From Escherichia coli phage NG_A1: a stretch of 64,000 nucleotides of DNA. The notes beneath the pieces were generated by a model that was not told the DNA's origin, did not search any database, and saw nothing but the letters and a program-made list of their open reading frames with translations. Where the stretch lies: the sequence record LC788705.1; one strand, given 5' to 3'. Position 1 is the first letter of the stretch. The number at the start of each line of letters is the position of its first letter. The position numbers and the translations under genes are program-made. Below, piece by piece: positions 1,295 to 37,648 of this stretch.

Positions 1295-1328
1295 AAACCC
1301 CAGAGGGATATCCCTCTGGGGTTTATTA
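1295..1328. terminator. Bidirectional rho-independent terminator between convergent tail-fibre and dUTPase genes
   Basis: Perfect hairpin ccccagaggga/tccctctgggg flanked by A-run and T-run. Confidence 0.75.
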
Positions 1329-34782: not shown

Positions 34783-35312
34783 TTACAGCAATGTATGCAG
34801 TTGGGCCGAATGGGGAGTTCGGCCTCCGCGGTAAACTTCCATGGGGTTCCTTCAAAGAAGAACTAGATGCTTTCTATTCTCAACTGGACGTGTTGAATCC
34901 AGATAACATCATCATTGGTGCGGGTACTTATTTAGCTCTTCCATATGCCGTTAGGGAACGTATGATTGGAGCTTCTGACCTATTTATTCGTGCTGATCGT
35001 CCATTGCCAGACGATATTACACATGATATTTACACTCCCATATCAATGATAGGTGATACATTACCTACCTTTCTAAAAGATCAACAAACAGTAGTTCTAG
35101 GCGGAGCTAATCTTCTTCTAGAAATGTACCAACATGGGCATATAGAAAGTGCTTTTGTATCTACAATCTTTAGCGAACAGAAGCTAGAGGCAGATATACA
35201 CCTAGATAGTATGATACTGGATTATAACTATGAATCCACCCGATTAGTCTATGCAGTTGGCGCAAACAGTGATAACAGCCTGCGATTTGTACAGGAATTG
35301 GTTACTTATTAA
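34779..35312 (+). CDS. frd: Dihydrofolate reductase
   Basis: 177 aa; DHFR N-terminus MITAMYAVGPNGEFGLRGKLPW. Confidence 0.8.
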   Translation: MITAMYAVGPNGEFGLRGKLPWGSFKEELDAFYSQLDVLNPDNIIIGAGTYLALPYAVRERMIGASDLFIRADRPLPDDITHDIYTPISMIGDTLPTFLKDQQTVVLGGANLLLEMYQHGHIESAFVSTIFSEQKLEADIHLDSMILDYNYESTRLVYAVGANSDNSLRFVQELVTY

Positions 35313-36151
35313 TGCAACAATACTTAAAAATTTTGACAGATGTAATTTTACTAGGTGAACCCCGTAATGACCGTACAGGAACAGGCACAGTTTCAATTTT
35401 TGATTCCTATGCTAAGTTCGACCTACGTGAAGGGTTCCCGGCTGTAACTACTAAACGCCTGGCCTGGAAATCAGTAGTAGGAGAACTTTTATGGTTCTTG
35501 TCTGGTTCCACAAATCTTCATGATCTACGTGTATTCACATTTGGTCGTGACGAAGGACAGTGGACTATCTGGACTCCAAATTATGAAGACCAAGCTATAA
35601 GTATGGGTTATGATAAGGGTAATCTAGGACCAGTATATGGTAAACAGTGGCGCAACTTTGGTGGGCGAGATCAGATTCTAGAACTTATTGAAGGACTCAA
35701 GAATAATCCTCATGGCCGCAGACATCTAGTTTCTGCATGGAACGTAGCTGAACTTGATAAAATGGCATTACCACCCTGTCACTACGGCTTCCAGTGCTAT
35801 GTAAGTAACGATGGATACTTAGATCTTAAATGGACACAACGCTCTGTGGATTGTTTCCTCGGTTTACCTTTCAATATTGCTAGTTATGCTTTATTAACAC
35901 ATATATTAGCAAAACTGACAGGATTAAAACCTCGTTATCTTATCTTTAGTGGCGGTGATACTCATATCTATAATGACCACATGGAACAGGTAGAAGAACA
36001 GGTAAAACGCAAGCCACGCCCTCTGCCAACTCTAGTAATGCCAGAGTTTGTAGATCTCTACGATTTACTGGAGAATAATACTGTAGCTTGGTCATTCCAT
36101 TTAGAGGGGTACGATCCTCACCCAGCTCTTAAAGCTAAGATGTCTTCTTAA
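35312..36151 (+). CDS. thyA: Thymidylate synthase
   Basis: 279 aa; active-site PPCHYGFQCYV, R.L..W. Confidence 0.9.
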   Translation: MQQYLKILTDVILLGEPRNDRTGTGTVSIFDSYAKFDLREGFPAVTTKRLAWKSVVGELLWFLSGSTNLHDLRVFTFGRDEGQWTIWTPNYEDQAISMGYDKGNLGPVYGKQWRNFGGRDQILELIEGLKNNPHGRRHLVSAWNVAELDKMALPPCHYGFQCYVSNDGYLDLKWTQRSVDCFLGLPFNIASYALLTHILAKLTGLKPRYLIFSGGDTHIYNDHMEQVEEQVKRKPRPLPTLVMPEFVDLYDLLENNTVAWSFHLEGYDPHPALKAKMSS

Positions 36152-36156
36152 TTTAA

Positions 36157-36180
36157 ATAGCCCTTCGGGGCTATTATATT
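36157..36180 (+). terminator. Rho-independent terminator after thyA
   Basis: Hairpin atagccc-ttcg-gggctat then T-rich tail. Confidence 0.65.
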
Positions 36181-36222
36181 TGAAATTGTACTTGCTTATT
36201 AAGTACAATTTCAAATATAATA
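36172..36222. repeat. 51-bp near-perfect palindrome (22-bp arms, 7-bp centre) overlapping promoter 36192..36221
   Basis: Hand-aligned: 36172-36193 is the exact reverse complement of 36201-36222. Confidence 0.8.
36192..36221 (+). promoter_or_regulatory. Early-type promoter embedded in the palindrome
   Basis: TTGCTT-18-TATAAT. Confidence 0.55.
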
Positions 36223-36250
36223 TACTCAATAAGTACAAAAGGATAATAAA

Positions 36251-36634
36251 ATGAGTAAAGAAATTGAATTAGAACAAGCCCTTCTGAATTACTCCAATTA
36301 CTTGCAGGGTGATAAAGAAACTATTACTAAGGAACAGGTATTACTAATACTAGACTCTATCACTTCTAAATTCAGGACTTTAGAAGACTACTACTCTGTA
36401 GGCAATGGAGATGAGAAGATAGAGTTATGTCTAAATCTCCTAGAAGATATGGGCTGGAATGTGGAAGATCAAGTAGGATATTTAGGTATATCTACAGAAA
36501 TTCTAGAAAATACAGAGCATGAAAATATACTTGAAGTAAAGAGCAGAAGTGCTATTCGGTATAATACTTATGGTACAGGTATTACAGGAATAAAAGCATT
36601 ACTTAGTATAGATATAGGATGGTTAGATGAATAA
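36251..36634 (+). CDS. Hypothetical protein
   Basis: 127-aa ORF. Confidence 0.5.
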   Translation: MSKEIELEQALLNYSNYLQGDKETITKEQVLLILDSITSKFRTLEDYYSVGNGDEKIELCLNLLEDMGWNVEDQVGYLGISTEILENTEHENILEVKSRSAIRYNTYGTGITGIKALLSIDIGWLDE

Positions 36635-37175
36635 AAAGTTACCTAGCCAAGAAAGATTAAAAGAATTATTAATCTATGATCCAGATACCGGTATATTTAC
36701 TAATAAGGTAAGTCGTGGTAGGGGAGGAAAAGCAGGTTCACCCGCTGGATACCTAAGAAAAGATGGCTATATAACTATTAAGATAGATAAAATAGATTAT
36801 TTAGCACATAGACTAGCCTTTCTATACATGACAGGATCAATACCAGATTTAATAGACCACAAAAATAGGATTAGGTCAGATAATAGGTGGATAAACCTAA
36901 GAGAAGCTACAAGCCAGTCTAATAATAGAAACTGTACCGCATCGAGTAAATCTGGATATCTAGGTGTACACTGGAACAAACAACTACAGAAATGGCAAGT
37001 ACAGGTGATTGATAATAAGGGTAAAAATATTTATGGGGGTGTTTTTGACTACTTAGACCTAGAAAGTGCGGTCATAAAGGCTAATGAACTGAGAAAAACA
37101 CTTCATGGTAGCGAAGCAGTTATAGAAGATTTCTATACTAACTATTACCCACCAGTAGAGGAACTTAATAAGTGA
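36627..37175 (+). CDS. HNH homing endonuclease (HNH + AP2-like domain)
   Basis: 182 aa; HRLAFLYM...IDHKNRIRSDNRWINLR, SGYLGVHW; paralog of 12616..13137. Confidence 0.75.
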   Translation: MNKKLPSQERLKELLIYDPDTGIFTNKVSRGRGGKAGSPAGYLRKDGYITIKIDKIDYLAHRLAFLYMTGSIPDLIDHKNRIRSDNRWINLREATSQSNNRNCTASSKSGYLGVHWNKQLQKWQVQVIDNKGKNIYGGVFDYLDLESAVIKANELRKTLHGSEAVIEDFYTNYYPPVEELNK

Positions 37176-37648
37176 GCGTTTTCCACATTTACACAGATGG
37201 TGCTTGTAAGTCTAACCCAGGTCCAGGTGCTTGGGGATTTATTGTCTATGATGATAACGATGATCGTTTAGGTTCTAAATCTGGATATAGTCCTAAAACT
37301 ACAAATAATGAGATGGAACTCACGGCTATTGTAGAGGCTCTACGTTGGTCAGTTAAAAAAGATAATAGACCAATTGTTATCTATACTGATTCTGCTTATT
37401 GCAAAAATGGTATGGAAAGTTGGATGTTTTCTTGGCAAAGGAAAGGCTGGAAGAAAGCAGATGGTGAAGTTCCTCTTAATCTAGAACTTTGGCAGGAAGC
37501 ATTTAAATTAACACAACAGTATATCAACTTTCATAATACTAATCCTACCTTTATTAAGGTTAAAGGACATTCTGGTATTAGTGGTAATGAAGCTGTAGAC
37601 GCCTTATGTAACACAGTTATTACTGAAGCTGAAATGGCTGAGATGTGA
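37172..37648 (+). CDS. rnh: Ribonuclease H
   Basis: 158 aa; YTDGACKSNPGPGAWGF, NNEMELTA, TDS motifs. Confidence 0.85.
   Translation: MSVFHIYTDGACKSNPGPGAWGFIVYDDNDDRLGSKSGYSPKTTNNEMELTAIVEALRWSVKKDNRPIVIYTDSAYCKNGMESWMFSWQRKGWKKADGEVPLNLELWQEAFKLTQQYINFHNTNPTFIKVKGHSGISGNEAVDALCNTVITEAEMAEM

What the first reader, a model, noticed from the sequence alone, without database searches (positions are those of the whole stretch)
36172..36222. 51-bp near-perfect palindrome coinciding with an early promoter, directly after the thyA terminator
Two 22-bp arms (36172-36193 and 36201-36222) are exact reverse complements around a 7-bp centre, and they span the -35 and -10 of promoter 36192..36221. A palindrome this long is unlikely by chance. 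It could be an operator for a dimeric regulator, a cruciform-prone site, or an RNA hairpin in read-through transcripts.
Basis: seen in the sequence. Interest (0 to 1): 0.5.

Follow-up and report, generated by a model that had tools for sequence, protein, structure and literature searches.

The report
Hairpin-wrapped early promoter after thyA
A real, perfect 51-bp palindrome wraps a strong early promoter of a T5-like phage right after the thymidylate synthase gene; its two arms have stayed complementary in hundreds of related phages even as their sequence changed, so it is kept as a folding hairpin rather than a protein docking site, but its function is untested.

Summary
Arms 36172-36193 and 36201-36222 are exact reverse complements around a 7-nt centre. 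This is the longest perfect inverted repeat in the window (22 bp; shuffles give 10±1.2, maximum 15).

The window is a BF23/T5-like phage. The palindrome encloses the homologue of T5 "early promoter T5P27", one of 20 TTGCTW-N16-18-TATAAT promoters here. The -35 lies mostly in the loop, the -10 in the right arm, and the left arm abuts the thyA GC hairpin. None of the other 19 promoters has such symmetry.

Relatives (426 phage records, plus Klebsiella sugarlandviruses) keep the pairing through compensatory substitutions and matched 1-nt indels in both arms. Loop length varies (0, 7, 13-16 nt). A second junction, after pnuC in epseptimaviruses, has the same design with different arm sequences. Two phages independently lost exactly the loop.

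This argues against a rigid dimer operator and for an intrastrand hairpin. My best guess (about 0.4) is an RNA stem-loop that forms only in transcripts reading through the weak thyA terminator and insulates the two transcription units. Rivals are a DNA cruciform or hairpin effect, or a functionless inverted repeat kept perfect by template switching. I found no published description.

The parts
35312..36151 (+). thyA (thymidylate synthase, 279 aa), last gene of the upstream early unit nrdB-frd-thy
   Evidence: ORF; annotated thymidylate synthase in T5 and BF23 homologues
36156..36175 (+). GC-rich hairpin AATAGCCC-TTCG-GGGCTATT (presumed thyA intrinsic terminator, with a poor interrupted U-tract ATTATATTT); its last 4 nt overlap the left arm
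   Evidence: Sequence; self-complementarity; folds as a 7-bp stem; ARNold terminator in the BF23 record; not called by the simple scan
36172..36193 (+). Left arm of the palindrome. It occupies the T-tract and UP-element position (-37 to -57) of the promoter; its outer ATTATA is the complement of the -10
36194..36200 (+). 7-nt centre GCTTATT (asymmetric). With the last 2 nt of the left arm it forms the -35 hexamer TTGCTT (36192-36197)
36201..36222 (+). Right arm of the palindrome: most of the promoter spacer (36198-36215) plus the -10 hexamer TATAAT (36216-36221) and one more base
36192..36221 (+). T5-type sigma-70 early promoter (homologue of T5 'putative early promoter T5P27'); predicted start near 36228, so its own transcripts lack both arms
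   Evidence: 20 sites against 0.25 expected; family alignment; annotation in T5 and BF23
36251..37648 (+). Downstream unit served by the promoter: orf127 (unknown function, phrog_26840), HNH endonuclease (36627-37175), RNase H (37172-37648). orf127 and HNH are absent from T5

Best explanation
The palindrome is a conserved inverted repeat wrapped around a T5-type early promoter. Together with the abutting GC hairpin it forms a compact terminator/promoter junction between the nrdB-frd-thy unit and the next early unit.

What evolution preserves is base pairing between the arms, not a fixed sequence or a fixed spacing.

The most likely working form is an RNA stem-loop of about 20-22 bp. It exists only in transcripts that read through the weak thyA terminator. 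Transcripts that stop at the GC hairpin end inside the left arm, and transcripts started at the embedded promoter begin about 6 nt after the right arm, so neither can form it.

In read-through RNA it stacks directly on the GC hairpin. There it would end, process or cap the transcript. The duplex is long enough to be an RNase III substrate, and in many relatives it is followed by a U-rich tail. The effect would be to insulate the downstream unit from upstream transcription.

Shown: the structure, its conservation, the covariation, the promoter identity, and the geometry relative to transcript ends. Inferred: that RNA is the active form, and what happens to that RNA.
For: - **Pairing is conserved.** Across 18 distinct variants 96.9% of cells pair, against 31-52% with partners slid. 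Eighteen cells changed on both sides (0 of 500 shuffles reach this) and the covariation score is 0.189 against 0.117. RNAalifold finds the same helix independently.
- **Compensatory events are seen directly.** G:C went to A:T through G:T (window, then T5, then L019). C:G went to T:A in L023. Three pairs differ on both sides between type A and BF23. Matched 1-nt indels in both arms separate types A, B and C.
- **The design recurs in another genus.** Klebsiella sugarlandviruses (RNase H 52% identical) have the same architecture at the same junction. Two further T:A to A:T swaps occurred per arm and the loop has diverged.
- **A second junction has the same design with different arms.** After pnuC in epseptimaviruses the arms are TATTATACAGAAATTTTC / GAAAATTTCTGTATAATA, 18 bp and perfect.
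- **It is specific to this promoter.** The other 19 early promoters of the window show no dyad symmetry above a cross-pairing control (11.9 of 22 against 11.9 +/- 1.3; this one 22 of 22).
- **Loop length is free.** Loops of 0, 7, 13 and 14-16 nt occur. This is harmless for an RNA hairpin and unfavourable for a cruciform or a rigid dimer site.
- **All junctions fold as two abutting hairpins in RNA**, with z-scores of -4.9 to -9.5.
- **Stem mismatches lean to G.U on the + (sense) strand.** About 9 G.U against 4 A.C. In 16 of the 19 T5-type variants the + strand RNA hairpin is the more stable one; in two the two strands are essentially equal, and in L023 the - strand is more stable.
- **Family precedent.** In Vibrio phage PG07 the only hairpin after thy is a GC-rich, U-tailed stem whose loop holds the -10 and the start site of the next promoter. 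In phage D239 the terminator stem overlaps the -35.
- **The left arm keeps ATTATA**, the complement of the -10, at the cost of a good terminator T-tract. Other terminators in the window have TTTTCTTT-type tails.
Against: - There are no transcript data, so read-through, cleavage or termination at this hairpin are all unobserved.
- The G.U against A.C bias is not significant (about 9:4, one-sided p around 0.1), and A.C variants persist in whole clades (Eps7 group, Uniso31 group).
- The tail after the hairpin is U-rich in T5 and type B (TATTTTA) but not in this window (TACTCAAT) or in sugarlandviruses, so termination cannot be the universal role.
- Compensatory changes, matched indels and the two precise loop deletions are also what replication template switching or hairpin processing at the DNA level would produce, without selection on RNA.
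- An RNA-only role does not by itself explain why the hairpin must be built from promoter sequence. Compaction is an inference.
Confidence: 0.4

Rival explanations
1. DNA-level structure. The inverted repeat extrudes as a cruciform, or folds as a hairpin in transiently single-stranded DNA. This hides the -10 and spacer in a stem and the -35 in a loop, so promoter activity would depend on supercoiling or replication state.
For: The DNA hairpin is predicted at -18 kcal/mol with z = -11. The element overlaps every promoter element. Two independent, precise deletions of exactly the loop plus the innermost pair (EC148 and Roth37) and the matched indels suggest that the DNA does fold in vivo at least occasionally.
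Against: The commonest form has a 13-nt non-palindromic centre, and the second site 14-16 nt, which strongly disfavours cruciform extrusion. The T5 lineage carries 2-3 positions that are G.T on one strand and A.C on the other and has persisted and diversified. No supercoiling or probing data exist. T5 DNA is linear and nicked (PMC10644984), so sustained negative supercoiling is uncertain.
Confidence: 0.2
2. No function of its own. An inverted duplication of the promoter spacer and -10 arose by a replication template switch. It is kept perfect by the same quasi-palindrome correction mechanism and tolerated because both arms still serve as T-tract/UP element and as spacer/-10.
For: Published work argues that imperfect inverted repeats in Proteobacteria are preferentially corrected to perfect ones by template switching (PMC5941160; also PMC7202029, PMC8604942). 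Matched indels and multi-base compensatory blocks (TTT/AAA against CAG/CTG between the two sites) are easy by copying and hard by independent point mutations. The right arm of the second site is simply the canonical T5 early spacer. The loop deletions show mutational activity at the hairpin.
Against: The element persists across at least three genera and more than 500 records. Old differences are all compensated. It costs the thyA terminator a proper T-tract. Only 1 of 20 equally AT-rich promoters in this window has it. Long palindromes are normally lost rather than kept.
Confidence: 0.2
3. Operator: a symmetric binding site for a dimeric phage or host regulator that controls this one early promoter.
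For: Perfect dyad symmetry centred on the -35/spacer. The outer 10 bp of each arm are invariant in all variants.
Against: The arm-to-arm distance changes by up to 16 bp among functional-looking relatives (0, 7, 13, 14-16 nt). Inner arm positions change, but always in complementary fashion. 22-bp arms are far longer than known half-sites. No other copy of the arm exists in 64 kb. Neighbouring proteins show no DNA-binding regulator domain. The outer invariance is explained by the -10 itself.
Confidence: 0.08
4. Replication or recombination element: an AT-rich hairpin acting as an unwinding or priming site (ssi-like), or as a fragile site that promotes exchange of flanking gene cassettes.
For: Nucleotide homology among relatives stops at about window position 36224 on the right and at the thyA stop codon on the left, with different genes on both sides. 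Homing endonuclease genes sit next to it in several phages.
Against: The cumulative GC skew turns at about 30 kb, not at 36.2 kb. Break points at gene boundaries are expected for any conserved terminator/promoter module (compare PeSLs, PMC4122927). The other 19 modules lack a palindrome. In a folded single strand the -35 would be unpaired, unlike known single-strand promoters.
Confidence: 0.07

Closest known systems
T5 early promoters (T5P27 as annotated in AY587007; the P25/P26-type family used in expression vectors)
   Same: TTGCTW -35, 17-18 nt spacer, TATAAT -10, AT-rich upstream region and an ATA(T/C)T-type discriminator. The position upstream of an early gene and orthology to T5P27 also match (PMC7472727 for the ATATT discriminator).
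   Different: Only this promoter, plus the pnuC-junction promoter in epseptimaviruses, is enclosed by an 18-22 bp inverted repeat. It lacks the TG extended -10 that many others have, and here the spacer is 18 nt rather than 17.
PeSL composite terminator/early-promoter motifs of T4-like phages (PMC2839356, PMC4122927)
   Same: A small conserved stem-loop-plus-early-promoter cassette at gene boundaries. Flanking genes differ between relatives and homology breaks at the cassette edges.
   Different: A different phage family and sequence. In PeSLs the stem-loop and the promoter lie side by side. Here a second, long AT-rich hairpin is built from the promoter's own spacer and -10 and its upstream region.
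RNase III processing hairpins between early genes of T7/T3 (own knowledge, not tested here)
   Same: An intergenic stem of about 20-22 bp in a phage early region, just upstream of the next gene's leader. The stem is long enough for RNase III.
   Different: T7 sites have internal loops and sit in an obligatory polycistronic transcript. Here the hairpin is perfect, lies behind a terminator, overlaps a promoter, and would exist only in read-through RNA. No cleavage data exist.
Quasi-palindrome correction by replication template switching (PMC5941160, PMC7202029, PMC8604942)
   Same: Arms stay perfect. There are multi-base and indel changes mirrored in both arms, and mutational events centred on the loop.
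   Different: That is a mutational process and not a functional element. It does not explain the fixed placement around one promoter in three genera.
Cruciform-controlled promoters, and hairpin promoters of single-stranded DNA (Frpo of F, phage N4 early promoters; own knowledge)
   Same: Promoter elements lie within an inverted repeat that can fold.
   Different: Frpo-type sites place both -35 and -10 in the duplex stem; here the -35 is in the loop. N4 hairpins have 5-7 bp stems and are read by a virion RNA polymerase. Natural loops of 13-16 nt disfavour extrusion.

Membership tests
T5-type sigma-70 early promoter | -35 TTGCTW, 16-18 nt spacer, -10 TATAAT | tested here: met
   TTGCTT-N18-TATAAT at 36192-36221; 20 such sites against 0.25 expected
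T5-type sigma-70 early promoter | AT-rich upstream block and conserved ATATT-type discriminator / leader ending in an RBS | tested here: met
   The upstream TTTGAAATTGTAC matches other family members. The discriminator is ATACT here and ATATT in T5 and type B. The RBS AAAGGA precedes the ATG at 36251.
T5-type sigma-70 early promoter | Orthology to a promoter recognised in T5 | tested here: met
   Aligns with 'putative early promoter T5P27' of AY587007 and a predicted early promoter of BF23. Activity of this particular promoter was not found in the papers read.
Intrinsic (rho-independent) terminator of thyA | GC-rich stem-loop directly followed by a U-tract | tested here: inconclusive
   The stem AATAGCCC/GGGCTATT with a TTCG loop is present. 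The tail ATTATATTT is interrupted. ARNold called it in BF23 but the simple scan did not.
PeSL-like composite terminator/promoter cassette | Stem-loop plus early promoter forming a short conserved unit at boundaries of variable genes | tested here: met
   The roughly 78-bp unit 36149-36226 is conserved where both flanking genes differ. This is a resemblance in design only; PeSLs are defined in T4-like phages.
Operator of a dimeric regulator | Fixed spacing and conserved sequence of two half-sites | tested here: not met
   Spacing is 0, 7, 13 or 14-16 nt, and inner arm sequence changes with compensation
Operator of a dimeric regulator | A cognate DNA-binding protein | tested here: inconclusive
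   No regulator domain in the four neighbouring ORFs tested. The rest of the genome was not screened.
RNase III processing site | About two helical turns (20 bp or more) of dsRNA in a transcribed region | tested here: inconclusive
   The stem is 20-22 bp in types A-C and 16-18 bp in sugarlandviruses and the second site. It is transcribed only if the thyA hairpin is read through, which is unknown.
RNase III processing site | RNase III-dependent cleavage in vivo or in vitro | not testable with these tools
   No transcript-end data were found
Cruciform-forming palindrome | Perfect arms with a very short centre, extruding under supercoiling | tested here: inconclusive
   Met in this window (22 bp arms, 7-nt centre) but not in the commonest relatives (13-nt centre). 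Extrusion itself is not testable here.
Any curated RNA family (Rfam 15) | Score at or above the family's gathering threshold | tested here: not met
   Only sub-threshold matches to generic miRNA-precursor hairpins (26 bits or less against thresholds of 50-230)
Single-strand DNA hairpin promoter (Frpo-like) | -35 and -10 both reconstituted as duplex in the folded strand | tested here: not met
   The -35 lies in the unpaired centre

The most novel reading that the evidence does not exclude
The hairpin-wrapped promoter is a conformational switch at the DNA level. When the region is single-stranded or negatively supercoiled, for example behind a replication fork or behind its own firing polymerases, it folds. 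Folding either shuts the promoter off, or presents a duplex -10 that lets host RNA polymerase prime complementary-strand synthesis. That would be an unrecognised replication- or topology-coupled control or origin element of T5-like phages.
Probability: 0.1. Interest if true: 0.75.

Novelty: new variant of a known kind. Interest (0 to 1): 0.45.

Why it matters
T5 early promoters are among the strongest known E. coli promoters and are widely used in expression vectors. How T5-like phages insulate their densely packed early transcription units is barely studied.

This element shows a design in which a terminator-side hairpin is built out of the next promoter's own sequence, so that it can act only on RNA arriving from upstream. 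If confirmed, it would be a compact natural insulator that could be copied in synthetic constructs.

The clean covariation and the recurrent loop deletions also make it a natural test case. It could separate selection on structure from template-switch self-correction of palindromes.

Tried and rejected
- **A general property of T5 early promoters.** Rejected: the other 19 promoters show no dyad symmetry above a cross-pairing control.
- **A second copy elsewhere in the genome.** The '2 places' is only the palindrome matching itself on the opposite strand.
- **A divergent (bidirectional) promoter.** The minus strand has TATAAT with a TTAATA -35 in this window. The minus-strand -35 is not conserved in types B and C (CTAAAT), and the transcript would run straight into the GC hairpin.
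- **A known RNA family.** None found.
- **A replication origin judged by skew.** The skew minimum is at about 30 kb.
- **A T5 nick site.** There is no GCGC-type motif (own knowledge of the nick consensus). Not pursued.
- **Strand bias of mismatches as a test of RNA against DNA.** About 9 G.U against 4 A.C, too few independent events to decide.
- **Literature.** Searches for a description of the palindrome or for T5 transcript-end maps found nothing relevant. The T5 genome paper is not in the library.
- **Metagenome scan.** It mostly returned chance matches, with only a few new T5-like variants.

Full report
**1. What the window is**

The region matches T5-like phages (Demerecviridae, Tequintavirus). 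It is 100% identical over 36140-36250 to Salmonella phage SA001 and 94% identical to BF23. The gene order is nrdA-nrdB-frd-thy, then the intergenic region in question, then orf127, an HNH endonuclease and RNase H.

**2. The observation**

The two 22-nt arms (36172-36193 and 36201-36222) are exact reverse complements around GCTTATT. This is by far the longest perfect inverted repeat in the window; the next has 15-bp arms. Block-wise dinucleotide shuffles give a longest arm of 10.0 +/- 1.2, with a maximum of 15. At the element's own composition the expectation is about 2e-4 per window. The strand folds with z = -8.9 as RNA and z = -11 as DNA.

**3. The promoter and the terminator**

TTGCTT (36192-36197), an 18-nt spacer and TATAAT (36216-36221) form one of 20 TTGCTW-N16-18-TATAAT sites in the window, against 0.25 expected by chance.

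Aligned on the -35, these sites share the known look of T5 early promoters: an AT-rich upstream block, an ATATT-type discriminator and a conserved leader with an RBS. PMC7472727 describes the ATATT discriminator. The site is orthologous to 'putative early promoter T5P27' in the T5 record and to a predicted early promoter in BF23.

Upstream, thyA ends at 36151. It is followed by AATAGCCC-TTCG-GGGCTATT at 36156-36175, whose last four bases are the first four of the left arm. Its tail ATTATATTT is a poor U-tract. The simple scan did not call it, whereas ARNold did in BF23.

The geometry is therefore:
- GC hairpin;
- left arm, in the T-tract/UP position;
- the -35, mostly in the loop;
- right arm, made of most of the spacer plus the -10.

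**4. This is not a class property**

For the other 19 early promoters, the best symmetric pairing between the upstream region and the spacer/-10 is 11.9 of 22 on average. Pairing one promoter's upstream region with another promoter's spacer gives the same value (11.9 +/- 1.3). This promoter scores 22 of 22.

**5. Relatives**

The module from stop codon to start site is found in 426 phage records. In most relatives, megablast-level similarity stops at window position about 36224. In many, only 36149-36224 matches, because both flanking genes differ. The flanks include:
- two thyA alleles;
- extra ORFs or a homing endonuclease upstream;
- various ORFs downstream before rnh.

I collected 19 distinct T5-type variants from GenBank, IMG/VR and metagenome loci. 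They fall into four types:
- type A: 22-bp arms and a 7-nt centre (this window and T5);
- type B: 18 bp plus 2 further pairs, with a 13-nt centre (the commonest);
- type C: one extra base in each arm (BF23, S124);
- type D: EC148, a 34-bp palindrome with no centre at all and no -35.

**6. Covariation**

These changes can be read directly from the sequences:
- G:C (window) to G:T (T5) to A:T (L019);
- C:G to T:A in L023;
- three pairs changed on both sides between type A and BF23;
- 1-nt indels always mirrored in both arms.

On a model-based alignment of 18 distinct variants, 96.9% of cells pair, against 31-52% when partners are slid. Eighteen cells changed on both sides and the covariation score is 0.189 against 0.117; no shuffle out of 500 reaches either value. 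RNAalifold predicts the same helix.

Caveat: the alignment was fitted to the structure and the sequences are related, so these numbers support the hand-read events and do not replace them.

**7. Deeper relatives**

Klebsiella sugarlandviruses (RNase H 52% identical) have, at the same junction:
- a different GC hairpin (GGTGGCC-TTCG-GGCCAC);
- 16-bp arms TTATATTAAAAATTCA / TGAATTTTTAATATAA;
- a 13-nt centre carrying TTGCAA;
- a 17-nt spacer and TATAAT.

Against type B, each arm differs at two positions, both compensated, while the centre has diverged.

One sugarlandvirus, Roth37, lacks exactly the centre plus the innermost pair (15 nt), leaving TTCGAA. This is the same event as in EC148. Two independent, precise loop losses suggest that the DNA hairpin is processed in vivo from time to time. 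They also show that a phage can survive without the -35.

In Vibrio and Aeromonas members the palindrome is absent, but terminator hairpins overlap promoters in other ways. In PG07 a 16-bp GC-rich, U-tailed stem has the -10 and the start site in its loop. In D239 the terminator stem overlaps the -35.

**8. A second site**

The covariance model found another instance in a metagenomic T5-like contig. BLAST showed it to be common in epseptimaviruses, at the junction after pnuC. It consists of:
- GC hairpin TATAGCCCTC-TAAGC-GAGGGCTA;
- arms TATTATACAGAAATTTTC / GAAAATTTCTGTATAATA (18 bp, perfect);
- a 14-nt centre with TTGCTT.

Here the right arm is simply the canonical early spacer plus an extended -10, so the left arm must be the derived copy. 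The orthologous T5 promoter has no left arm.

**9. What this excludes**

- **A rigid dimer operator.** It does not fit variable arm spacing, compensatory change along the whole arm, the absence of other copies and the absence of a nearby regulator domain.
- **A divergent promoter.** The minus-strand -35 is not conserved.
- **An origin.** The GC skew turns at about 30 kb, where the early genes diverge, and not here.
- **A known RNA family.** Rfam has nothing above threshold.

**10. What remains**

All evidence points to intrastrand pairing. I rank three readings.

- **(a) RNA stem-loop in read-through transcripts (0.4).**
  - For: it is indifferent to loop size. Its ends coincide with transcript logic, because terminated RNAs end in the left arm and promoter-initiated RNAs start after the right arm. 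It abuts the GC hairpin in every fold. Mismatches lean to G.U on the sense strand. PG07 shows the same idea in an unambiguous terminator.
  - Expected fate of a 20-22 bp perfect duplex (from established knowledge of E. coli RNase III, not tested): cleavage, or service as a 3' cap or second-stage terminator where the tail is U-rich.
- **(b) DNA cruciform or hairpin affecting the promoter (0.2).**
  - For: the loop deletions.
  - Against: the long centres and the lineages with 2-3 mismatches.
- **(c) A functionless inverted duplication kept perfect by template switching (0.2).**
  - For: this process is documented for bacterial inverted repeats (PMC5941160, PMC7202029, PMC8604942) and naturally gives mirrored indels and block changes.
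  - Against: the element persists across genera, and it costs the terminator its U-tract.

The operator (0.08) and replication/recombination (0.07) readings come last.

**11. Novelty**

I found no description of this palindrome.

The closest known kind is the composite terminator/early-promoter cassette (PeSL) of T4-like phages (PMC2839356, PMC4122927). The difference is that here a second hairpin is made from the promoter itself. I rate it a new variant of a known kind, with moderate interest. The decisive experiments are transcript-end mapping in wild-type and rnc hosts and pairing-breaking and pairing-restoring mutations.

Noticed in passing
window 36224-37175 (compare L001 2827-3027): Relative to T5, this phage (like BF23) carries an inserted cassette, orf127 plus an HNH endonuclease ('hegE' in BF23), between the promoter and rnh. 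Nucleotide homology with T5 stops at about 36224. Other relatives carry different ORFs or a homing endonuclease on either side of the module.
   Followed up: partly
L095 1520-1560 (phage EC148) and L239 2665-2694 (Klebsiella phage Roth37): Two phages of different genera independently lost exactly the loop plus the innermost base pair (15 nt, including the -35). What remains is a perfect loop-less palindrome centred on TTCGAA. This suggests hairpin-directed deletion and shows that the -35 is dispensable for viability.
   Followed up: partly
L247 1515-1575 (BSP22A), L249, L250, L251, L178 11826-11882: A second hairpin-wrapped early promoter with different arm sequences lies after the pnuC terminator in epseptimaviruses. 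It is absent from T5 (L248) and from this window.
   Followed up: partly
L242 2690-2750 (Vibrio phage PG07); L243 2355-2400 (Vibrio phage D239): In PG07 the thy terminator stem (16 bp, GC-rich, U-tailed) encloses the -10 and start site of the next promoter, and its right arm includes the next gene's ribosome binding site. In D239 the terminator stem overlaps the -35. Overlapping terminator/promoter modules seem to be a family habit.
   Followed up: partly
window 7147-57969: There are twenty TTGCTW-N16-18-TATAAT early promoters. All those at or below 27206 are on the minus strand and all those at or above 29977 are on the plus strand. The cumulative GC skew minimum falls at the switch (about 28-30 kb).
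   Followed up: no
L001 2803-2812 (T5) against window 36201-36209: The two T5-specific changes in the right arm (AAGTACAAT to AGGTATAAT) create a second perfect TATAAT 18 nt after TTGAAA. T5 may therefore have a tandem promoter 12 bp upstream. L019 then restores pairing with a left-arm G-to-A change.
   Followed up: no
window 1295-1324: A 30-bp perfect GC-rich palindrome AAACCCCAGAGGGATATCCCTCTGGGGTTT (15-bp arms, no loop), flanked by A and T runs. It looks like a bidirectional terminator.
   Followed up: no
window 36199-36208 and 36229-36238: TTAAGTACAA (loop and right arm) is repeated as ATAAGTACAA in the orf127 leader, so the left arm's TTGTACTT could pair alternatively with the leader. BF23 has the same leader but a different right arm, so this is probably coincidental.
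   Followed up: no
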